Source: Mizuhopecten yessoensis (taxonomy: Eukaryota). From it: 64,000 nucleotides of DNA. The stretch is from positions 876,107-940,106 of the forward strand of contig NW_018408645.1 of assembly GCF_002113885.1 (NCBI RefSeq). Reading direction: 5' to 3'. The number at the start of each line of letters is the position of its first letter. Within the stretch, counting starts at the first letter, position 1. Of the stretch, positions 2,795 through 47,382 are shown one piece after another. A program made the position numbers and the translations under genes. Below the pieces are notes generated by a model. The model worked only from the letters and a program-made list of their open reading frames with translations, ran no database searches and was not told the DNA's origin.

Positions 2795-4516
2795 CCTCAT
2801 GAAAATATCAAAACATTAAAATGCCCGGTGTTCTGCTTGAAATTGTATTTATAGTAAATGTGTTACGTAGTTGTTATGGTTAATGTCTAATAATAGGGAA
2901 CAATAGGATACAATCTGACAACATTTGACTTATATGTACATGTATATACATTAAAAACGGTTTTACACTGCAGTGTGTAATTATGCATAAATCACATTTG
3001 ACAATCACAAGGTACAGTGCATGGCTACTCAAGTCATATATTTCCCTTCAAAAAAGAACAATTAAATGGGCGGAGTGGGCCAGTACTTTCAGGGCTTAAC
3101 CCTTTCACCTCTATGTAACTTAAGTAGACTCTACCATGCATTGATATGGACGAGTCCATTATGGACTACAGTGGTGAAAGGGTGAATCAATGAAGGTATC
3201 AACATATCAGACTGTATCACTGTCTGTTTCTAGCTATATTACACCCTATAGAATACACCACACAGAATAAGGAAGTTCAATACAGCTGTAATGAATTCTT
3301 ATAGGATCTGAAGAGTTAATTGTGAATGATTTGATATTAGGCCTTCAATCTGTTCAGTATTATATTTCAAATTTCAAGGATCAATTTTCTAAAGGTTAAA
3401 AAAGGCAACAGATGCAATACTGTGGTTCTAGATTTATATTGAGTAAACCTGACCTATGTGTGAATATCAAAAAGAAAAATCAACCAAAGAAATATGAACA
3501 GATACATGTAGTATAATATAAAGTTTACTCAACTATTGTAGCATGTACTATCACATTGAATACCTTACCCAAGTAGTTTTGAAGGTTTTATTAATCTAGT
3601 AGTCCTGCGGTTAGAATCTAGTCCATTTAAGAATCTAGTCATTCTTTGAAAAGGACTCGAAGCTCTTACTCAAACCTGAAGTTAGACCGATTGATTTTCC
3701 GGCATTAAAGAACATGTATCAAAGTATGATGAAATACTTTCAAAATGTTCCTTTATTAATGAAGGCTAAATAACATCTGTTCTCTTTGATACATGTGCTG
3801 TGGATGCTGAGAATTCACAAAATACAAAAGCTTAGTAAAAGTCCTGTCTATGAAACATTTTTGTCTAAAGACAATATCAAATCTTCTTAACCCATTGTCT
3901 ATGCTGTATAAAATGTAAAAATTGGATACAGTGGTCTAGGAATACTGTTCAGATTTTATAAGATGGGATTTATAGTAGGCAATTCACCATTGCAGAAGAT
4001 TCGTTTAGAGGTGTATGAAGCGACAGAGCAAACTATGTAGCCGCAGGATTACCAAGTTAATAGTTTAATGGTGTTACCTAAACTCACCTGTGTAAGTTAC
4101 CTAATTTACCTTAACTACAGTCAATGAATTGAAAATTTGCCTGATAGTTTGAAGTGCTGATAATCAGAGTCAATTCAAATTCTGTTGATTCAGACATTAC
4201 CATTTCTGTACACAAATGTGATCAAAGTAACTGCAGTTAAGATTGGTTTACTTATCAACATTTCGCCAAATGTCATGATGATCTCACTTAGGCTGTATTC
4301 AGCAGAACTTTATTTCACTTGGTCAACCATGTTACTAAACAATGAACTGTTTAAAAAGAAATAAACAGAATTTAACGATAAATTGGTCGAAAAATTTGAT
4401 CAGGTAATTTATTAACCATTAATACGCAACTTCATATAAATGACCTAGATCAACAATTTTCCATCATTTGTTAACCGTGCACAATAAATAATCCCAGTTG
4501 TTATCCCCATCTAAGG

Positions 4517-7500
4517 CTACGATTTTTCTACATTGTACGGTTCCAGTAGATTTTCGGAAAATTCTGTTATCTTTGTTGCTCCTCTAACTTCCTCGTCCAG
4601 TAAAGGTAACTTTGTCACGTTGAAGTCCTCGTACAGATCTGCAATCTGAAAAATCGGACACACTTACTCTATATTTCATCAGTATCAGAAGTGAGTATGT
4701 TATATAATGCATATTTTTTTCCTTTTTTTACCTGTTTTTTTCATACCAGTACAATATATATCCCACGTGACATAAACACTATAAACTCGTCTGCTGGATA
4801 ACCGAACTACTCGGTAGTGAAGGGGACGTAAAACCAATCAATCAATCAATCAATCAATCAAACACTATAAACCTGGTCTTCTTTAGGATGTTGAACACAG
4901 TCAGACCATTGTTGGTAATGAAAGAGAACAGACCTAGTGGCCTTATTTCTTTGTAAGGTTTGATAAACACTTCAATTTCAAGTCCTATGTTAATAGTTCT
5001 GCCAATGACTGCCCCTGATAAATCTTACATTTAAAAGCAGAGGAAACAGAAGCTCCTCCTACATGAAACTGCCACGATCTATCAAAATTTATTTTTGTAT
5101 ACAATATTCCATTGGGTCTTAATGCTGTGTTTAATACAAAGATATCATGTGATATTCATATTTTACCTATTTTCACCTGTAATTACCTGGTCTAAATACT
5201 TGGCTTGTATTTTGTGTCTAGACTTGCACATTTTGCACGGTTCTGTCCCCTTCTTTAGAAATAAGAGTTGATTGACCACAACATTGTGAGTGTCTATACC
5301 ATATCGCGTCAATTCTTGTACCAGTCTTTCTGTTTCGTACAGTGACAGGAATTCTGCTATACAAACACACACAAATGTTGTTTCATCCTGGAAAGGAAAG
5401 TAATAACTTTTGTAAAAAAAATGAACAAAAAAAATGAACAAATACAAAATACACAAAAAATTACACAATAACACAAGATTGGATGGTATCACCAGACTTT
5501 AAAGAAGCCATTAGTCCTTGGCTAGGGACTAATAAAATCCATTCTTTCAAGTGACTTTTAAGCCACTTGCTCTGATGAATGTTTGAAGCCATTTGCCCTA
5601 ATGACTTTGAAAAGCCTTGGGAATTAGAAAATATCACCTGCTCTAGTGATTGTTCAAAGCCACTAGTTGCCCTAGTTGTTGTGAAAAGCCATAGTTACTG
5701 ATAAAACCCACTTTCACTGTTGATTGATTAAAGCCACTAGCCCAAGTGATTGTTTAAATCAAACTGCCTGAATAAACCATCAGTACAAACCATAAGATTG
5801 GCTCTGAAGCAAAACATCAAGGCATGTTAAACACATATACATGGTATCATTGAAGCAGGGACACATGAATTAATTAGAACGTAAGATTCTGATAAGATGA
5901 TGAAAGGATGTGTATAGGCATTGATTACTCACTGCGTTTTTGAACTGGGCGTTGACATGTCTGATCGTGGTTAGCATGTCCTGTAGTTTGGTGGACATGT
6001 CGTCTGCGTTCATGTCCTGCATCCCCATCATACCTGCCATCTGTTAAACAAGGGAGACAACCATGACACAATTGTAGGCATAGATTTCTTATTTTAGAAT
6101 GACCAGCATGTTTCCGAGATGTGAAAGGATGTGACAATCAGTCATCTGAATGTTGTCTAACTATAGACTGACGAGTGTCATAAGGAAACCTGACAGAGAA
6201 AGGTTGACAAAAATATACTAAATTGGTCAGAAATACAAAACGTATTTTTTTATATGCATTTTGAATATTTATAAAATAAGATTCCAAATGGATTTATGCT
6301 TTAGTCAGTATACACTCAACCTGTATTAAGAGACCACCCTGCGGAAGTGTTCTATTAACACAGGTGGTCTCTTAATAAAGGTTCAAATACCTCTGGTAAT
6401 AATAAAATCACTACAATAAAGAACATTAGAAGTGGATTCTAAACATAGGTAGCCTCTTAATAGAGGTGGGCACATGTGTACGTTTGACTCTAATATATAT
6501 AACAGATTTTAGTTATGTCCTGTAATATCCAAATGATAAAATAGCTCAAAACCACTTTGTTCTGCATGAAACTGATATTTCTGTCCTTGTCTTATCTGGA
6601 CATATTATCTAATCTAACTATGTCAATAAAGACAGGTTCTGGTGTACAACAAGTTTTATGATCTGTTTCTCACCTGTGATATAAATGGTCCCACTTGGTT
6701 TTTTAGTCGGAGAATCTTGCCGAGTCCCTTCTCTATGACGGAGGGAAACGAGAGAAGGCGCAGTGTGTGACCAGTGGGGGCAGTGTCAAACACCACACAC
6801 GAAAAGTTCATTCCGTTCACCAGTCTAAAAACAGGAGGTTATTTTTATACAGTGTCTAGTCTGATCCAAGATATCCATACCTATTGCATATATTTATCTC
6901 GAAGTTTGATCCAAGATCACATTTCTCCGGCCTCTATGTAAGACGAGTGTAAAAGGATACAGTACGGGTGGTAAGGATGTTAATAAAGTAATTTGGGGTT
7001 TGTTGTATAATATTTACAAACATTCTGAATATGAAGGTCATATGATTACAAGAATACCAGGGTGATACATGTTCTATGGAAGTGATAATAACAGAGAAAA
7101 GAAGTATTCTTTGTTCTGCTATGGGGCTACATGTAAACGCTCATTTAATGTACGTTTATCATATGAAACAAACAAAACAAGAGGCCCATGGGCCTTAACG
7201 GTCACCTGATATATTTATACAGAGAGTTGATTTTGTTTTTAACACGAACAGAAATATTATTCAAAGTGACAAAAAACAATAAAACCACCTTATTCAATAT
7301 CTAGCATGCAGATTTAAGACTGAAAAGTATTTGAAACTAGCACCTCTGATTCTAAACAAGGAAAAAGAAATTTTATTTTAGCACACAGACTCCGTGGGGC
7401 CACACCCTACAGCCCTTTTCAAAGTATCAAACTGTCAACTTAGGGTTATGATTCCAATCAAGTTATCAACATGTAATATTCAAAGTATCATTTGCCATTA

Positions 7501-37600: not shown

Positions 37601-40411
37601 TTTTACTTTAAACGACTTCTTCTTAATAACCGAAAGGCCTAGGGTGATGATATTTGGCCACAAGCAAACTGGGATGAAGGGCTACCAAGTTTGTTCAAAT
37701 AAATGCCCTTCATCCATTTTCAAGGTCACATGGGTCAAATATGTTCAAAACCTTTAAACAATTTCTTCTGAAAACCAAGAGGCCTAGGATGATGATATTT
37801 GGCCAGTATCATGCTGGAATGAAGGGCTACCAAGTTTGTTCAAATAAATGACCTTGCCTTATATTCAAGGTCACAGGGGTCAAATATGTTCAAAACCTTT
37901 CTACAACTTCTTCTGAATTACTGAGAGGCCTAGGATGATGATATTTGGCCAGTAACATGCTGGAATGCAGGGCTACCAAGTTTGTTCAAATAAATGGCCT
38001 TGTCTTATATTCAAGGTCACATGGGTCAAATATGTTCAAAACCTTTAAACAACTTCTTCTGAATAACCAAGAGGCCTAGGATGATGATATTTGGCCAGTA
38101 ACATGCTGGAATGAAGGGCTTCCAAGTTTGTTCAAATAAATGGCCTTGCCTTATATTCAAGGTCTCAGGGGTCAAATATGTTCAAAACCTTTAAACAATT
38201 TCTTCTGAAAACCAAGAGGCCTAGGATGATGATATTTGGCCAGTAACATGCTGGAATGCAGGGCTACCAAGTTTGTTCAAATAAATGGCCTTGCCTTATA
38301 TTCAAGGTCTCAGGGGTCAAATATGTTCAAAACCTTTAAACAACTTCTTCTGAATAACCAAGAGGCCTAGGATGATGATATTTGGCCAGTAACATGCTGG
38401 AATGAAGGGCTACCAAGCTTGTTCAAATAAATGACCTTGCCTTATATTCAAGGTCACAGGGGTCAAATATGTTCAAAACCTTTCTACAACTTCTTCTGAA
38501 TTACTGAGAGGCCTAGGATGATGATATTTGGCCAGTAACATGCTGGAATGCAGGGCTACCAAGTTTGTTCAAATAAATGGCCTTGCCTTATATTCAAGGT
38601 CACAGGGGTCAAATATGTTTAAAACCAATGACCTCTTCTTAATAAGCAAAGGCCAAGAGTGATGATATTTGGTTATTAACATGCTGGGATGAAGGACTAC
38701 CAAGTGAATGACCTTCACCCTATCCAAGGTCACAGTGGTGAATAGATATTTAAATCTTTAAATGATTTGTTCTGTATAACCAAAAGGTTTAGGGTAATGA
38801 TATTTTGCCAGAAGCATGCTGGGTTGGAAGACTAAAAACTCTGTTCAACCTAATGTCCTTGTTCGACATTCAAGGTCACAGGCATCATATATTTAAATCT
38901 TTTAATAGGTTCTTATGAACCAAACACTGATATTCTGCCTGTAGCTGTATTTTAGTCAACATTTAAGATTACAAGTGTGAGATTAATACCAGGTGAGCGA
39001 TGCAGGCCCATTGGGCCTCTTGTTAAATGTAATTATATACATATGCATATAGCGGCAAGGGAGATAACTGTAACACCAATTCGACATGCACTGTAGCAAA
39101 CAAAAAAATCAGTGTATTTCATGTAACATGTTTGAAAAATTTAGGGTCCGTAGATAGGGAACTTATTTTATTAAAAAAATAATTTAAGTGTTTTATAAAG
39201 TTATTTTAACTTTAACTTGCCTAAAATAAGTTGAGGGTTGGTAGGGTTACTTTAACTAAAAAAAACAACACTTTTTGCCTTGCCTTATTTTAAATGTATT
39301 TCTTGCTCAGAGAGCATTGCTATGACGTAGATATGAAATTATTTTAGTATAACATGTTTTTATGGATTTGTTTTTCGCATCCTATAAACCACACCTCCAA
39401 TATTAATATGGGCTTCCGAAAGCAATGAATTATTGCTAATGAAGAACTAAAGATACATGTACATATTAATGCGTTTTTCTTTGAAGCTTGGTTTCTGGCA
39501 ATGCTGAATTGTTTCGTCCATATTTTGATGTACACATACTACGGGTTGTCTGCCCTTGGTCCACACATGCAGAAATATTTATGGTGGAAACGCTATCTTA
39601 CAATACTTCAATTGGTAAGTGTTACTTGTAAGACTAGGAAGTCACGCCTAAGTAGGGCTGTTATAGTAAAATCTTTAAGGAGAAACTCTATACCAAAGCA
39701 CGTCTATTATAAGATAGATTTTCGTAAACTTTAATCACGGACTTAGATAGCAATCTAATTCCTTGCCATAATCCAGTTATAAAATTGGAATGATACCATT
39801 GCTTAGATGGTAATAACAAGTTAAAATTGTTTGAGATAGTTGCCGTAGATGAACTTCCCTAGGGGTATTTTTCAATTTTGACTGAATATCACTCACCCCT
39901 CCAAAAATCCACCCAAACAAATTTCACCCATATCGGTCTTTCCGAGTATATTTCTTTGCTATTTCTAAGTGGAACAGAATACATTCCACCCGTCCTAACC
40001 CTTCCCGTCCTTACCCTTCCCATCCTCTGTCATTCTTCGTCTCTTAGGCAACTCACACTGCCAGCCACGAGATAAATCTTTAGATGCGTTATTGGCAGAT
40101 TGTTGATTAGCGCCTTGAAATAAGTCAGCCTTCTTCTACGACCAAAGAAACTACATAAAACGTATTTCTGTTTTAACTGATATTTTCTTTGGTTACAGAG
40201 TCAGTTTTTTGCTGTCATACTGCACACTGGCTACAACATGACGACCGACTGTGATTTCCCCATCGGATTTAACTACGCTGTGTTTATATACGCCATCACA
40301 CTGGTGCTGTTGTTCTCCAACTTCTTCATGCACACTTACACGTCAAAGGAAGACCAACACACACAAGTCAAAGGAAGACCAACACACACAAGTCAAAGGA
40401 AGTTACAATAA
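34609..40411 (+). CDS. ELOVL4: Elongation of very-long-chain fatty acids protein, ELOVL4-like paralogue A, 7 coding exons, 278 aa
   Basis: Exons: 34609-34663, 35144-35331, 35662-35742, 36225-36281, 36426-36540, 39487-39614, 40199-40411. Motifs [41 protein letters not shown] (HxxHH box), [28 protein letters not shown]. Family assignment is secure; the ELOVL4 versus ELOVL1/7 subfamily call is an inference from motif resemblance. Confidence 0.9.
35754..35861. mobile_element. 108-bp insertion flanked by a 14-bp direct repeat that duplicates the ELOVL-A exon 3 donor
   Basis: cgggtgagactttt occurs at 35740-35753 and 35862-35875. Confidence 0.6.
36999..39024 (+). mobile_element. HINE/Helentron-type element with a ~146-bp tandem core and a duplicated head, ELOVL-A intron 5
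   Basis: Head ttttagctcacctggcacaaagtgccaagtgagc, which recurs at ~37495; (CCGT)n; ~145-146 bp repeats; tail caggtgagcgatgcaggcccattgggcctcttgtt. Confidence 0.8.
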
Positions 40412-40419
40412 CTATAGGA

Positions 40420-41595
40420 AGAGCTTAACACAATAACGATAGCTCAAAGGAAGAGCTTAACACAGTTACGATAACTCAAAGGAAGAGCTAAACACAGTTA
40501 CGATAACTCAAAGGAACAGCTAAACACAGTTACGATAGTTAAACAGTTACGATAACTCAAAGGAAGAGCTTAACACAGTTACGATAACTAAATACAGTTA
40601 CGATAACTCAAAGGGAGAGCTAAACACAATTACGATAACTCAAAGGAACAGCTACATACAGTAACGATAGCTAAACACAGTTACGATAGTTAAACAGTTA
40701 CGATAACTCAAAGGAAGAGCTTAACACAGTTACGATAACTAAACACAGTTACGATAACTCAAAGGAAGAGCTTAACACAATTACGATAACTCAAAGGGAG
40801 AGCTTAACACACTTACGATAACTCAAAGGAAGAGCTTAACACAGTTACGATAACTCAAAGGGAGAGCTTAACACAATTACGATAGCTCAAAGGAAGAGCT
40901 TAACACAGTTACCTTAGCTAAACACAGTTACGATAACTCAAAGGGAGAGCTAAACACACTAACGATAACTCAAAGGGAGAGCTAAACACAGTTACGATAA
41001 CTCAAAGGAAGAGCTTAACACAGTTACGATAGCTAAACACAGTTACGATAAATCAAAGGGAGAGCTTAACACACTTACGATAACTCAAAGGAAGAGCTTT
41101 ACACAGTTACGATAACTCAAAGGAAGAGCTAAACACAGTTACGATAACTCAAAGGAAGAGCTTAACAAAGTTACGATAGCTAAACACACTAACGATAACT
41201 CAAAGGGAGAGCTTAACACACTTACGATAACTAAACACACTTACAATAACTCAAAGGAAGAGCTTAACACAGTTACGATAACTAAACACACTTACGATAA
41301 CTCAAAGGAAGAGCTACATACAGGTACGATAGTTAAACACAGTTACGATAGCTAAACACAGTTACGATAACTCCAAGGAAGAGCTTAACACAGTTACGAT
41401 AACTAAACACACTAACGATAACTCAAAGGAAGAGCTTAACACAGTTACGATAACTAAACACACTTACGATAACTCAAAGGAAGAGCTTAACACAGCTACG
41501 ATAGCTAAACACAGTTACGATAACTCAAAGGGAGAGCTAAACACACTAACGATAACTCAAAGGGAGAGCTTAACACAGTTACGATAACTCAAACA
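40420..41595. repeat. 32-bp (and truncated ~20-bp) minisatellite immediately after the ELOVL-A stop codon
   Basis: Unit acacagttacgataactcaaaggaagagctta. Confidence 0.95.
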
Positions 41596-43442
41596 ATAGT
41601 TACATACACACCAGACAAACGATGAAATAGCACATACCTGGTGAAAGAAGAGCTAACTATATTCAATTTCTTGTTACCTTGTTAGAAAGTTCAAGCCTGA
41701 TTCTCGTTGGTTAATCGCGGTGTAAAACCGAACAAAAAGCCTCGTATTCCAGATTTAATAAGACTATTGGTGAACAAGAATAAGAACTTGGTCCCGTTTC
41801 ATCAACGTTCCTCAAATTAAAGGGACTAGAGTGGTAATTAGGTCACTGTTTAAAAATATCACAAAACGTAACATTTTTTACAACATATGCCACAAAACTT
41901 ACAATTTGTCTTAATAATACTAATTAATCATTTACATCATCGATTCCCTGCAGTTTCCTTGGTATAAATGACCAAACACTGTGATACTCACACTCAGGTA
42001 CTGATAGCATTGACTTTATTTACACCTGTTTATTGGAAGCGTTTCAATGTTGATTATACATTGTATAGACATGCTTATTATGAATTTGTGGATTTTTAAG
42101 AATCTACCTCATTAAAATTATTAAAATATTTGTTAATAAAGATTATGTAGTGTGAAAACCATGGTATTGTTTGTCTGATTTTTCTACACAATAGCAATCT
42201 GATGCAGTTCCATATCCGATGGTTTTCTAAATTCGAATGTGGCACTTGACCTCTGCAGCACTGTCTGCGAGTTCTAAGAACTATTCTCTTCCTATCACAC
42301 GGATGTGTAGGATGAGCAGTAATAGGAATGTGGCACTTTGTACCTCTACATTTCATAACATACTGTGTTTAGTATTATCTTAGCAGGTTTGAAGAAACAT
42401 TAAATTCCTTTCGCGTTAACTTTGCTGGCTGTTGTATTTTGTTCATTTAAAACTTATTGTGAAGAACTTAAATAGTATCTGCGACGTACATTAGGGTCAT
42501 TAACAAGACTGCAGGTCTTTATTTTGCGATAACATGTTTTTTTATCGTCCTCCTTTGGGTCTGAAAGTTCTACTTCAGGTGATGCTCAATGCTTCACTTC
42601 CGGTCCTGAAAGTTCCGCTATCGGTTTTGTAATAGAAGTGACTTTTGTCAAACAGGAAATGTTAACGTTCACATCTTTTTTCATTCTTACCTTGCTTGTG
42701 AACAATGAAATTGAGGGATGTTATGTCCATAGTTAAATCGATGAGATTTTGCTGTTTAAACCTCACGTCGGGGATGAACTATGTTTGTCCATCGCCAGGA
42801 GTGGAGCCAAAATATGTGATTTACTCTATCAGATTCGGATGCTTGTCTATCACTAGGAAAGGGTGGGGAACCTACGCCATCAACGGGGATAACGCGGGAA
42901 TAAAAAGGATGCGAGTGGGACTGCTTCGTCGTAAGTATTACACCAATATATCCAAATATTGAGACTGTATTGTTTGCCTATGTTAACTGTTGAAGATCCC
43001 ATGTTGCAAAGAGTCTGTCGGTGTAATTGTTCAAAAAGTCGTGTACAGTTGTGCATCGTACGAACAATTAACGAGGATATGTTAGGACATTTTTGTGGTT
43101 TTCATGCATATTGCCTTACAATGTGAGAATGTAACAAATTACATGTCCGAGGATAATATGAATCGAATATAAATGCTTACTGAGATATACCATTTGAGTC
43201 ATAGGCTCAGAAGTTGTATGTTTCTTATGTTATGGTGAGAAATGTAAAATCGGATATCGGTAGGACTTTACAAATACAGGATATCGTGCGGACATTTTTG
43301 ACAATAGATGTTAAAGATTTTCTATTTCAATATCTTTACCTGATGCATGTAATGAGGATACATATTTCGGTCAAACGTATCTTTTGTCACGACCAGCTTT
43401 TTTTTCGAGGTGTTTTTTGACGATTTTTGTATATGTTTTCAG

Positions 43443-44025
43443 CACATATCTATGCACGGAATGTGGACGGAAAGTGTCAAACCCGTCCTCAAAGAGGAAA
43501 CATGAACTTCGTCACAGGGGTCAGGGAGCTTATAAGTGTGAACAATGCGCTAAACCGTTTCACTGCAAATCTGATATGGACAGGCACGACTGTGCAAACG
43601 TCAAACCACGGATGCACGGGTGTGAGAACTGTGATAAAACATTTTTGACCGAGCGCGATTTGAAAAGGCATGTCAAAAGAGAGAGTAAAGAGCTCAGATA
43701 CAGCTGTGAGCATTGCAATACCCAGTTTGAGGAATTAGCTCAGCTGAAGGACCACCAATCAAAACATGGAGCTGACAAACGCCACAGATGTACCAAGTGC
43801 AACAAGAGTTTTGCCTACAGATCCAATCTGTCGAGACATGCAAGGACCCACACAAGCACACTCGAAACGTCTCAATGTAAGCAGTGCAGCAAGGCGTTTA
43901 AGACACAACGCTACCTGAAAAGACTCTTGGACAGACATGCCTCAGAGGTTTGCCCTAGTAACATTTGTGGTAAAGTTTTCAAATCCAGGGAATATCTAAA
44001 GAAACATGTTTTGAAACATAACTAG
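43443..44025 (+). CDS. C2H2 zinc-finger array exon (7 fingers, 2 degenerate), left arm of the foldback; possibly a pseudogene
   Basis: Acceptor tatgttttcag at 43442, then CxxC...HxxxH repeats to a TAG at 44023-44025. Fingers 3 and 6 each lack a His. I could not find an in-frame upstream exon. Confidence 0.65.
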
Positions 44026-45130
44026 TTTTCCTAAATGTGTGTTACACAGACAGTTACTTATATGTAAAGTGCAAAACGAAAGTAAAATGATACGAAGCGA
44101 AAATGAAATATCCTAAAATCTGTATGATACGAAACAAAACGAAATATCATTGAATATGTAGTATACGAAACAAACGAAATATTATATCAAAATTCCAGAA
44201 AAAAGTGTTCTTGTATGTCTTTTACGATTTGTCTCCCCCTTTCGACAATACAAACGCCAAGAAGGCAAATCGTACTAGACATGCACGAAGTATTTTTTTC
44301 TGTGTAATACTGTGTTGAATTACCATGCATGATCAGTCGGCAAATATTATGTTGCACGTTTGTATATTTGGTAGCTATTTGAGTTCAGATTCATGTTAAG
44401 TCCATATTAGAACTGAAGTTGACAGATATGAGCATTGTCAATGATCAGAACCATTTTGGAAATCAAATATGATAATTAAGAGATTCATTGAGAGTTTTGT
44501 GGGGGTTTAACTTTTAAATGTACTTTATGAAAAATTGAAAATACATAGTTCGCATATTATGTGCTATCGAAGTTAAATTTTCTTAAATAAACGTATTAAT
44601 GCTTAATGGTTGGATAAAATGTAACACTTCGTCCTTATACCTATATAAATGTATTTGATGTTAAAATGATTTTAGTAATTTATATGTTTAGCATACATCA
44701 ATATCCAGCTCTAATTTGGGCTTGCCACCAAAACCTTACTTTCAGTTCAGAACATTATACAGTGCGTGTATTCAATTTTAATACCAATGCAAAACTAAAT
44801 ATAATCGAATCTGCATTTTACGGAACGAAACAAAATATATTAAATCAAAATCCCAGAAAAAAATACTTCTTGCATGTCTAGTACGATTTGTCTTCTTGGC
44901 GTATGTATTGTCGAAAGGGGGAGACAAATCGTAAAAGACATACAAGAACACTTTTTTCTGGAATTTTGATATAATATTTCGTTTGTTTCGTATACTACAT
45001 ATTCAATGATATTTCGTTTCGTTTCGTATCATACAGATTTTAGGATATTTCATTTTCGTTTCGTATCATTTTACTTTCGTTTTGCACTTTACATATAAGT
45101 AACTGTCTGTGTAACACACATTTAGGAAAA

Positions 45131-45713
45131 CTAGTTATGTTTCAAAACATGTTTCTTTAGATACTCCCTGGATTTGAAAACTTTACCACAAATGTTACTA
45201 GAGCAAACCTCTGAGGCATGTCTGTCCAAGAGTCTTTTCAGGTAGCGTTGTGTCTTAAACGCCTTGCTGCACTGCTTACATTGAGACGTTTCGAGTGTGC
45301 TTGTGTGGGTCCTTGCATGTCTCGACAGATTGGATCTGTAGGCAAAACTCTTGTTGCACTTGGTACATCTGTGGCGTTTGTCAGCTCCATGTTTTGATTG
45401 GTGGTCCTTCAGCTGAGCTAATTCCTCAAACTGGGTATTGCAATGCTCACAGCTGTATCTGAGCTCTTTACTCTCTCTTTTGACATGCCTTTTCAAATCG
45501 CGCTCGGTCAAAAATGTTTTATCACAGTTCTCACACCCGTGCATCCGTGGTTTGAGGTTTGCACAGTCGTGCCTGTCCATATCAGATTTGCAGTGAAACG
45601 GTTTAGCGCATTGTTCACACTTATAAGCTCCCTGACCCCTGTGACGAAGTTCATGTTTCCTCTTTGAGGACGGGTTTGCCACTTTCCGTCCACATTCCGT
45701 GCATAGATATGTG
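45131..45713 (-). CDS. C2H2 zinc-finger array exon, right arm of the foldback (near-identical inverted copy); possibly a pseudogene
   Basis: The same 583-nt exon on the - strand. It differs from the left copy by S>A, V>L and P>S plus at least one silent change. Confidence 0.6.
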
Positions 45714-47382
45714 CTGAAAACATATACAAAATTCGTCATAAAACACCTCGAAAAAATGCTGGTTGTGACAAAAGATACGTTTGACCGAAATATGTGTCCT
45801 CATTACATGCATCAGGTGAAGATATTGAAATAGAAAATCTTTAACATCTATTGTCAAATATGTCCGCACGATATCCTGTATTTGTAAAGTCCTACCGATA
45901 TCCGATTTTACATATCTAACCATAATATGAGAAACAAACAACTTCTGAGCCTATGACTCAAATGGTATATCTCAGTAAGCATTTATATTCGATTCATATT
46001 ATCCTCGGACATGTAATTTGTTACATTCTCACATTGTAAGGCAATATGCATGAAAACCACAAAAATGTCCTAACATATCCTCGTTAATTGTTCGTACGAT
46101 GTACATCTGTACACGACTTTTTGAAGAAACAACACGCTTTACCAGATAAACAATTACACCGACAGACTCTTTGCAACATGGGATCTTCAACAGTTAACAC
46201 AGGCAAACAATACAGTCTCAATATTTGGATGTATTGGTGTAGTACTTACGAAGAAGCAGTCCCACTCGCATCCATTTTATTCCCGCGTTATCCCCGTTGA
46301 TGACGTAGGTTCCCCACCCTGTAATATGATTGTAGAAGTGCTTAAATGTTCCTCTCACGTGCTTTTGATTTAATGTCTGCCAATATGAAATATTTTTGTC
46401 GCAATTGTTGTTTCCATGTCAAATTTAGAAGTAAAACATACAACAAATATGTGTTAAAAACATGATAATTACCTGTGAATTTAAACTCCGTTAAACATGT
46501 CTATACTTGTTTAATCCTTTAATACATGTACAAAGATAAATGTCATTTATGCACATTCAAATTCAAATTCTTTTATTACTTTATGGCTTCTCGTATACAT
46601 GTTTATTATCATTGGGGAAGGCACTTTTACCGAAAAACGATCTAAACCTCTCAAACATATACAAATACTCTGAACACCTGAGTTTAGGTCCAAATATAGC
46701 TGAAACAAATTATCAGGTCCCTGTGTATTTCGGCGCAATAACGCTACATTTATTTCTAAATTTAAGTCACGCGACCTGTATTCTGAAGCTAATCGCTTCA
46801 GAAAACACGAGGCAGCAACAAGCCAGAGGGACCCTCAAGAGTCACCCAGCCAAAACAGCTTTTATCTTTACACTGGTAAACGTGAGACCTGAGACTAGAA
46901 ACAGTGTTTCCGGCTTTACTAAAGCGCTTTGATTTAAATCATTTTCGAAAAGAAACCACACACTGCAGGACTTTTATGAGAAATAGAAATAAAATAAACA
47001 AAGTATAAATCAACAACATTGTTTTGAGTGTAAAAATTCAATGAGGCCAAACGGGGATTGGGCTACCTGTTCAAGTGTCCTGGCCCAACTGTGCTACTGT
47101 TAAATCCAATCGGAAGTTAAGGGGATATTAGTCACTCTTGTCGACCCGAATGGAAGCGTGCAGTCTGCATAAGTACCAGAAGAAAAGACACGTGGCTGCC
47201 TTTAGTATTTCTAGTGCGTTGATGAACGTCTTCCGAACAGTGGTCACACTGCTTTCTAGCTATGTCGATTTCAGGAGTAGCATTATATTGCGACAAGACG
47301 TCAATAACGACATACACGAGTTAGATAATCTCATTATGTCGATCTACTTGTCTGGTTATGTCGTATGCCACACCTTGTCGCG

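What the first reader, a model, noticed from the sequence alone, without database searches (positions are those of the whole stretch)
42590..46320. Zinc-finger foldback: potential ~1.4 kb hairpin RNA locus
Seen: two near-identical convergent C2H2 exons with their upstream intron form ~1.45 kb arms around a 550 bp spacer. Only the left arm continues outward into promoter-like sequence (ETS motif ACTTCCGG at 42596, ATG at 42705); the right arm is cut at 46320. Most visible coding differences are non-synonymous, two fingers are degenerate, and the nearest upstream donor (gtaagt near 42931) does not give an open frame. Inference: rather than two genes, a read-through transcript could fold into long dsRNA (an endo-siRNA or ADAR substrate) targeting related zinc-finger genes or the parent transposon. 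A flanking neighbour points towards it on each strand (ELOVL-A on +, the B-box/NHL gene on -).
Basis: partly seen in the sequence, partly recalled or inferred. Interest (0 to 1): 0.7.

Follow-up and report, generated by a model that had tools for sequence, protein, structure and literature searches.

The report
Edited foldback from exonuclease-bearing P transposon
This mirror-image DNA is two right-hand ends of a dead jumping gene fused back to back, each carrying the element's own zinc-finger gene; RNA from the neighbouring gene likely runs through it and is likely edited as a long double-stranded hairpin, and the parent family's cutting enzyme is predicted to be P-element-like with a phage-type exonuclease built into it.

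Summary
The inverted repeat is real (arms 42860-44302 and 44854-46320, 29 substitutions and 2 indels, 551-nt spacer); both outer junctions recur in 4 of 4 DNA runs. It is not a pair of host genes. Both arms are the right end of a dispersed DNA transposon (at least 7 other places; ~460-bp TIRs starting CAGGG; 5-bp target duplications at 3 of 4 other two-ended copies), and the spacer is internal element sequence, inverted. The zinc-finger exon is element cargo evolving neutrally. Relatives encode a ~1,450-aa protein whose models match P-element transposase (Z 22.5) and lambda exonuclease, the latter apparently inserted inside the catalytic core. Host zinc-finger genes are too distant to be targets, and molluscs reportedly lack a dedicated siRNA pathway. 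Verdict: Galileo-like foldback derivative, likely an incidental ADAR substrate; the parent lineage is the more novel part.

The parts
42860..44302 (+). Left arm: inverted copy of the element's right end (positions 4859 to 3449 of the 4860-bp copy C3088); terminal C missing, no matching target duplication
42860..43306 (+). TIR part of the left arm (shared with the element's left end); holds exon 1 with its start codon lost (42906), donor at 42931 and most of the intron
43443..44025 (+). C2H2 zinc-finger exon, left copy (7 finger-like units, 4 Pfam stretches)
44303..44790 (-). Spacer: internal element sequence (C3088 positions 3095 to 2605), collinear with the left arm after a ~350-bp deletion (TG microhomology) and inverted relative to the right arm
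44790..44792 (.). Fold-back junction between inverted internal sequence and the forward right half; CG microhomology if 44791 is G, as in run X3
44792..45019 (.). Remnant of the element's internal imperfect inverted repeat (about 70-75% identity); both inner junctions fall in its left half
44792..46321 (+). Right half in canonical orientation (C3088 positions 3386-4860) with intact terminus; 44854-46320 pairs with the left arm
45131..45713 (-). C2H2 zinc-finger exon, right copy; in frame with exon 1
46250..46275 (-). Coding part of exon 1 inside the right TIR (ATG 46275, GT donor 46249, acceptor 45714); predicted 202-aa spliced product
   Evidence: donor seen used by a transcript of another copy in X13 and X15 (table 7)
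46322..46326 (.). Presumed 5-bp target-site copy TAATA; no partner at the left end
46319..47066 (-). Likely 748-nt GT-AG intron joining the B-box/NHL 3' region to the element; the terminal CAG serves as acceptor
   Evidence: one X12 contig, 25 letters on the far side; sites read; 25-mer unique in the genome
47383..48993 (-). Host B-box/NHL ORF (536 aa stop to stop), member of a large family; likely source of read-through
41960..42859 (-). Host flank downstream of the left arm on the - strand, covered by RNA contigs; AATAAA on - at 42523, 42034, 42020; holds the ETS motif and ATG 42705, outside the element

Best explanation
The locus is a non-autonomous foldback derivative of a dispersed DNA transposon, made of two right ends joined head to head around inverted internal sequence; it likely arose by local duplication within one copy, is likely read through on the minus strand from the B-box/NHL gene, and the resulting 1.44-kb stem is likely hyper-edited by ADAR as a by-product rather than a selected silencing device. 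Shown: element identity, junctions, arm relatedness, neutral zinc-finger divergence, presence in four DNA runs. Inferred: formation by two microhomology template switches at the element's internal palindrome plus a terminus-precise left join (transposase-made, or a two-ended unit that moved and later lost its left boundary); splicing of the host 3' UTR into the terminal CAG; editing; probable nonsense-mediated decay or nuclear retention of that isoform (untested). The parent element is predicted to encode a P-type transposase with a lambda-exonuclease domain inserted after the first catalytic aspartate, opposite a convergent zinc-finger gene.
For: Ends: 10 of 15 matches to 42400-43400 begin at query 461 = window 42860 and one at 466; 8 exact terminal 16-mers, control 0; 5-bp duplications at C3088, C5167, C5138. 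Layout and junctions. Arms differ by 2.1% but by 3.9-6.1% from five other right ends and share 12 derived positions. dN/dS 0.73, 1.06, 1.39 in 3 of 3 pairs. Transposase remnants in 5 of 5 other copies examined; homologues with YqaJ and PF21787 hits; model of homologue P0016 matches P transposase 6p5a at Z 22.5, rmsd 2.8 A, 275 residues and lambda-type exonucleases at Z 14-16; first-aspartate segment aligns to P-type proteins of this genome, E 5e-4, reversed control 0.58. DNA: both outer junctions covered in 4 of 4 runs, 44791 at flank-like depth in 4 of 4; an X11 contig spans both inner junctions with 0 differences. RNA: A>G plus T>C = 43 of 52 (X11), 22 of 58 (X13), 10 of 23 (X12), 11 of 34 (X15) against 11 of 54, 17 of 72, 12 of 64, 15 of 80 in DNA runs; T>C alone exceeds the DNA comparator in 4 of 4 (p 1e-7 to 0.035). 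The 11 listed flank or spacer pieces carry 0-1 differences; four X11 arm contigs carry 10-17.
Against: All runs are contigs: unstranded, no matched DNA of the same animal; three of four 'RNA' runs are guessed to be RNA; DNA and RNA were laid on slightly different stretches and thresholds (90 vs 93). On A>G plus T>C only X11 is significant (others p 0.06, 0.06, 0.23). 100 rows of the site table were not shown, so edits were not placed site by site. Several arm contigs are nearly unchanged (X15 record 25: 0; X11 record 3: 1; X12 records 12, 13: 3, 2). The splice join rests on one contig in 1 of 4 runs with 25 letters on one side, under the tool's 31-letter bar, and 5 letters fit either side. No contig spans the whole unit. 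No target duplication at the window copy or at C5536. The window copy has no transposase; the fold evidence is from homologues about 45% identical to the remnant. A non-canonical join 42607-44856 in two RNA runs is unexplained.
Confidence: 0.72

Rival explanations
1. Same transposon origin, but the locus is essentially silent; the RNA signal comes from DNA carry-over and from transcripts of other copies.
For: RNA cover is patchy and shallow; the deepest contigs (X13 records 18 and 22) come from other copies; no silent-stretch control could be laid; other copies have 460-bp TIRs that can also pair.
Against: Two heavily changed X11 contigs (43438-43605, 45104-45363) lie in the zinc-finger region, which is paired only in this foldback; an X13 contig across the unique left junction has 20 differences; the 46322-47071 join uses a genome-unique sequence and GT-AG sites.
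Confidence: 0.13
2. A host-retained hairpin or piRNA-trap locus that silences the parent transposon family.
For: Stem energy -2597.5 kcal/mol and 939 perfectly paired 21-mers; present in 4 of 4 DNA runs; other copies are about 94-96% identical; inner arm more homogeneous than outer (Fisher p 0.043, post hoc); molluscs have abundant piRNAs (PMC12479628 abstract).
Against: No intact copy found to silence; substitutions fall on both arms about equally with no sign of constraint; no dedicated endo-siRNA pathway reported in molluscs (PMC12479628); editing would melt the stem.
Confidence: 0.08
3. The right arm is a working (domesticated) zinc-finger gene driven by the B-box/NHL promoter or its own TIR exon; the left arm is a by-product.
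For: Right arm keeps ATG, donor, acceptor and a 202-aa frame; both exons are free of stops; an X12 contig starts to align exactly at the exon's first base with 30 other letters ahead (record 15).
Against: dN/dS about 1; finger 6 has lost a histidine in both arms; that X12 contig has a 25-nt deletion, so is another copy or allele; at about 2% divergence per arm an open 194-codon frame is unremarkable (my estimate).
Confidence: 0.05
4. Assembly artefact (fold-back chimera or two haplotypes joined).
For: Near-identical inverted arms are a known artefact pattern (recalled); no piece spans the whole unit.
Against: Arms differ at 31 places; outer junctions and 44791 are covered in four independent DNA runs; both inner junctions lie on one X11 contig.
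Confidence: 0.02

Closest known systems
[quoted passage not shown]
   Same: P-type parent with long TIRs; non-autonomous copy whose TIRs are lengthened by internal sequence duplicated in inverted orientation.
   Different: Here the recruited sequence is a whole passenger zinc-finger gene from the transposase-distal side; Galileo makes 7-bp duplications (PMC3698922 passages), this family 5 bp; no exonuclease or zinc-finger gene is mentioned for Galileo in the passages I read.
Drosophila P element transposase (PDB 6p5a, 6pe2) and P superfamily (P, 1360, Galileo; PMC3698922 passages)
   Same: Catalytic-domain fold (Z 22.5); conserved D, D, DxxH, E in homologues; termini begin CA.
   Different: About 1,450 aa with a coiled coil plus lambda-exonuclease insert (~430 aa) after the first aspartate and a second ~340-aa insert; no THAP hit in 22 homologues; 5-bp rather than 7-9-bp duplications; convergent C2H2 gene.
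KolobokE and ISL2EU, DNA transposons with a lambda-exonuclease/YqaJ domain (PMC9587614, PMC4482050; passages read)
   Same: DDE transposon carrying the same class of nuclease.
   Different: [quoted passage not shown]
ADAR-edited inverted repeats in 3' UTRs, e.g. inverted Alu pairs (recalled, no call)
   Same: Host read-through across inverted mobile-element copies gives a long stem with clustered A-to-G changes.
   Different: Single rearranged DNA transposon, 98% paired over 1.44 kb; entered by splicing into the element's own terminal CAG.
Drosophila hairpin-RNA (hpRNA) endo-siRNA loci (recalled, no call)
   Same: Long fold-back transcript built from duplicated coding sequence.
   Different: No complementary host target found; siRNA output untested and the pathway reportedly absent in molluscs.

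Membership tests
TIR DNA transposon (parent element) | Dispersed copies with shared precise termini and TIRs | tested here: met
   At least 7 other places; ~460-bp TIRs at 4 two-ended copies
TIR DNA transposon (parent element) | Target-site duplication | tested here: met
   5 bp at 3 of 5 two-ended loci of this family (not at C5536 or the window) and 1 of 3 distant relatives
P superfamily (P, 1360, Galileo) | P-type RNase H transposase fold | tested here: met
   Homologue model vs 6p5a Z 22.5, rmsd 2.8, 275 residues; Foldseek E 1e-4. The N-terminal model alone did not list it.
P superfamily (P, 1360, Galileo) | Catalytic D, D, DxxH, E | tested here: met
   P0006 D351 13 of 13, D871 16 of 16, D1254 and H1257 17 of 17, E1419 17 of 17; segments align in order to P-type proteins, but only the first is significant (E 5e-4; others 0.06 and 0.38)
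P superfamily (P, 1360, Galileo) | 7-9-bp target-site duplication (PMC3698922) | tested here: not met
   5 bp
P superfamily (P, 1360, Galileo) | N-terminal THAP domain (recalled as typical) | tested here: not met
   No THAP hit in 22 homologues, several of them incomplete at the N-terminus. So: works like P, not filed under any canonical P family.
Galileo-type extended-TIR (2RT) structure | TIRs longer than in the full element through inverted duplication of adjacent internal sequence | tested here: met
   1.44-kb arms vs ~460-bp TIRs; definition from PMC3573991. A structural class, not descent from Galileo.
KolobokE | Exonuclease downstream of the transposase domain | tested here: not met
   YqaJ lies between first and second aspartate
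ISL2EU | YqaJ in a separate ORF; GG termini | tested here: not met
   One fused ORF; CAG or CAC termini
Transib / hAT5 (5-bp duplications, recalled) | Transib- or hAT-type transposase | tested here: inconclusive
   Not among the listed fold matches; P transposase ranks first by a wide margin
ADAR-edited inverted repeat | Excess A>G (T>C) changes in RNA, confined to the paired arms | tested here: inconclusive
   Strong in X11 (p 4e-11), weaker in three runs; flank and spacer pieces clean; sites not listed one by one
ADAR-edited inverted repeat | Changes absent from the same individual's DNA | not testable with these tools
   No matched DNA/RNA pair was offered
hpRNA / endo-siRNA locus | Transcript able to form a long duplex | tested here: met
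   Duplex energy and perfect runs up to 353 bp; contigs across junctions
hpRNA / endo-siRNA locus | Phased ~21-nt siRNAs from the arms | not testable with these tools
   No small-RNA reads available
hpRNA / endo-siRNA locus | Complementary host target genes | tested here: not met
   8 of 8 DNA matches are element copies; host fingers at most 36% protein identity among 130 further matches

The most novel reading that the evidence does not exclude
The parent is an undescribed animal lineage of P-like transposons whose transposase carries a catalytically intact phage-type 5'-3' exonuclease inserted inside its RNase H core, makes 5-bp target duplications, comes with CAG or CACTGTG ends, and uses one TIR-borne first exon to feed both a transposase and a convergent zinc-finger gene; end resection by that nuclease could itself favour fold-back, two-right-end derivatives like this one, which then turn neighbouring host transcripts into kilobase ADAR substrates.
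Probability: 0.4. Interest if true: 0.72.

Novelty: new variant of a known kind. Interest (0 to 1): 0.52.

Why it matters
The hairpin itself is an ordinary kind of event (extended-TIR derivative, edited inverted repeat), but a clean test case: a 98%-paired 1.44-kb stem under a host 3' UTR in a mollusc-like animal shows directly whether long dsRNA there is diced, edited or fed to piRNAs, which PMC12479628 leaves open. The parent family matters more: a P-type transposase with a conserved exonuclease active site inside its core and a changed target-duplication length suggests a cut-and-paste enzyme that processes its own ends or donor site, found from bivalves to amphioxus, and testable in vitro.

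Tried and rejected
Prokaryote genome scan for the transposase: 74 pattern hits, none related; metagenome scan gave 7 short loci, the longest with no zinc-finger match and no usable pair of ends. Sequence search of PDB with P0006 found nothing; the profile found only lambda-type exonucleases. Whole-profile HHalign to P-type proteins was weak (E 0.063, 0.012). The zinc-finger tblastn used a wrong frame and was repeated. Spy (no duplication), Kolobok (TTAA) and hAT (8 bp) were considered from the termini (features recalled) and dropped. No empty-site joint was listed in 4 DNA runs, which shows no absence since contigs drop rare variants. The 42607-44856 join fits no GT-AG reading on either strand. 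Literature: 10 searches found no description of this lineage; two reviews sought by recalled DOI are not held; Repbase and Dfam could not be searched. No supplements were read; those of PMC9587614 or Repbase entries may bear on novelty.
Full report
Observation. The inverted repeat is as described: arms 42860-44302 and 44854-46320, 551 nt apart, differing by 29 substitutions in 1442 columns, a 25-bp indel and a 1-bp indel. Each holds a C2H2 exon with 4 Pfam finger stretches. The outer junctions are covered by contigs in 4 of 4 DNA runs from four studies (on the right with about 30 letters on the element side, and on the left 28 letters in X3), and position 44791 has flank-like depth in all four; a 711-nt contig of run X11 spans both inner junctions without a difference. 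One DNA run may be the assembly's source. An artefact is unlikely.

What it is. The exon has 8 DNA matches in the genome, on five contigs. Searching 42400-43400 gave 15 matches; 10 begin at window 42860, one at 42865, and the flank left of it is single-copy apart from one 72% match. Four other loci are two-ended elements of 4860, 4693, 3336 and 2697 bp with ~460-bp TIRs starting CAGG; one more has lost its right end and two are fragments. Five-base target duplications flank C3088 (ACAAT), C5167 (TAAAT) and C5138 (TTGTC), not C5536. The canonical order is left TIR, transposase remnants on +, internal sequence with an imperfect ~290-bp inverted repeat, zinc-finger exon on -, right TIR. The window copy reads, in C3088 positions: 4859 to 3449 inverted, 3095 to 2605 inverted, then 3386 to 4860 forward. 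It is two right ends with no transposase. The right terminus is intact and followed by TAATA; the left lacks its first base and a matching duplication. The inner joins have 2-bp microhomologies (TG; CG when 44791 is G as in X3) and both fall in the left half of the internal inverted repeat. The arms are closer to each other (2.1%) than to five other right ends (3.9-6.1%) and share 12 derived positions, so the duplication was local. Zinc-finger dN/dS is 0.73, 1.06 and 1.39 in the three full-length pairs, on few changes: no sign of selection.

Gene structure. The TIR holds a short first exon. In the right arm ATG 46275, donor 46249 and acceptor 45714 give a 202-aa in-frame product; the left arm has AAG at that codon, and ATG 42705 splices out of frame. 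Contigs in X13 and X15 from another copy leave the TIR at 46249 for sequence that translates to a stretch of the left-end interior, so this donor is used and one exon may serve both genes (inference).

Parent transposase. A 214-aa remnant from C5167 finds 13 proteins, up to 1515 aa; a C-terminal search finds 33, from bivalves, amphioxus, an annelid and a brachiopod where named. The host is therefore likely a bivalve (inference, also from the B-box/NHL expansion). Of 22 homologues scanned, 16 hit YqaJ and 12 hit the P-type RNase H family PF21787, mostly below its cut-off; none hit THAP. In 17 aligned proteins D351, D871, D1254xxH and E1419 and the exonuclease residues E598, D640, E659, K661 are invariant among rows that cover them. 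The model of P0016 (pLDDT 77) matches P transposase 6p5a at Z 22.5 over 275 residues from chain position 249 onward, and lambda-type exonucleases at Z 14-16. The segment before the insert aligns its aspartate to the first aspartate motif of P-type ORFs from this genome (E 5e-4; the later segments align in order but not significantly). I read this as an exonuclease inserted within the P-type core; no single model held all parts. Of 5 distant relatives in this genome (30-36% identity), 2 have a convergent zinc-finger frame (C5203, C3025), and 2 others have TIRs of the CACTGTG type, one with a CTCAT duplication.

RNA. Four of the 7 listed RNA or guessed-RNA runs were laid, from three studies. A>G plus T>C make up 43 of 52, 22 of 58, 10 of 23 and 11 of 34 differences, against 19-24% in the DNA runs; versus the highest DNA run p = 4e-11, 0.057, 0.060, 0.23, and for T>C alone 1e-7, 0.005, 0.008, 0.035. 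T>C outnumbers A>G in 4 of 4, as expected for A-to-I editing of a minus-strand transcript, though arm reads can be placed on either arm. Listed flank and spacer pieces have 0-1 differences (11 of 11); four X11 arm contigs have 10-17, two of them in the zinc-finger region that is paired only in this foldback. In X13, 39 of 58 sites are listed; the other 19 include 14 T>C and no A>G, and the contig across the unique left junction has 20 differences, so it probably carries most of them (inference by subtraction). Other arm contigs are nearly unchanged. One X12 contig runs from the element end into window 47071 onward, a 25-mer unique in the genome, which reads as a GT-AG intron 47066-46319 on the minus strand, 316 nt behind the B-box/NHL stop. 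This is a single contig below the tool's bridging bar. Limits: contigs only, no strand, no matched DNA, no silent-stretch control.

Mechanism. Most likely a canonical copy underwent fold-back template switching at its internal palindrome, replacing the left part with an inverted right part; the terminus-precise left join suggests transposase involvement or loss of a boundary after the two-ended unit moved (not resolved). The terminal CAG acts as a splice acceptor for the neighbouring host gene, whose transcript crosses right arm, spacer and left arm and may end near the AATAAA signals at 42034-42020; the stem (duplex -2597.5 kcal/mol) is edited. No host target exists at DNA level, and PMC12479628 (abstract and passages) finds no dedicated endo-siRNA pathway in molluscs and suggests editing as the fate of such dsRNA.

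Known kinds and novelty. The structure equals Galileo's extended-TIR class (PMC3573991, abstract and passages). P, 1360 and Galileo make 7-9-bp duplications (PMC3698922, passages); KolobokE and ISL2EU carry the same nuclease class in other arrangements (PMC9587614, PMC4482050, passages). Ten library searches found no account of a P-like element with an internal exonuclease, a convergent zinc-finger gene and 5-bp duplications, but Repbase was out of reach and I have an unverified recollection that such a group may be catalogued there. An unchecked note of this scan (e1-9181860) reports the same architecture and a similar foldback in another genome; it is a lead, seen after I had reached the reading. 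Verdict: new variant of a known kind; interest 0.52.

Noticed in passing
window 42607 / 44856: Two RNA runs of different studies (X13, X12) hold a join that skips the left arm and spacer through a 4-base microhomology, 2 nt from a good minus-strand acceptor but with no GT-AG reading; in X13 it sits on a contig with a 2-base insertion at 44972 absent from the window. Not listed in 4 DNA runs. Deletion allele or reverse-transcriptase switch; an editing-made acceptor on the + strand (GT at 42612, AA at 44858-59) is a remote option.
   Followed up: partly
G000:C2599:340428-342916 and G000:C5138:934482-940991: A second subfamily of the same transposase has CACTGTG...CACAGTG ends and a 5-bp duplication at C2599, features recalled as typical of Transib/RAG ends, here with a P-type enzyme.
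   Followed up: partly
window 42860-43400 vs 43400-44302: Outer part of the arms differs more (18 substitutions in ~540 bp) than the inner part (11 in 903), and shared derived sites are mostly inner (9 of 12): possible gene conversion or spacer flipping; p 0.043, post hoc.
   Followed up: partly
window 42596-42625: ETS-like motif cluster in the host flank; no gene assigned. 42420-42537 has one 72% match on C4827.
   Followed up: no
window 40201-41600: The likely last ELOVL exon runs straight into an array of 19-, 32- and 51-bp tandem units; all four DNA runs carry a 35-bp insertion at 41989 that the window lacks.
   Followed up: no
G000:C5435:460868-462150: This element copy has a four-fold in-frame tandem repeat of 68 codons in the transposase N-terminus, giving a 482-aa open frame.
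   Followed up: no
window 46584-46767 and 46952-47135: Two very high-copy repeats (depth thousands to tens of thousands in DNA runs) lie inside the presumed intron; loose ends at 47073 look tRNA-derived.
   Followed up: no
L094:1-182 and 2944-3125: A metagenome contig with a related transposase fragment has a 182-bp, 99% inverted repeat that runs off the contig start.
   Followed up: no
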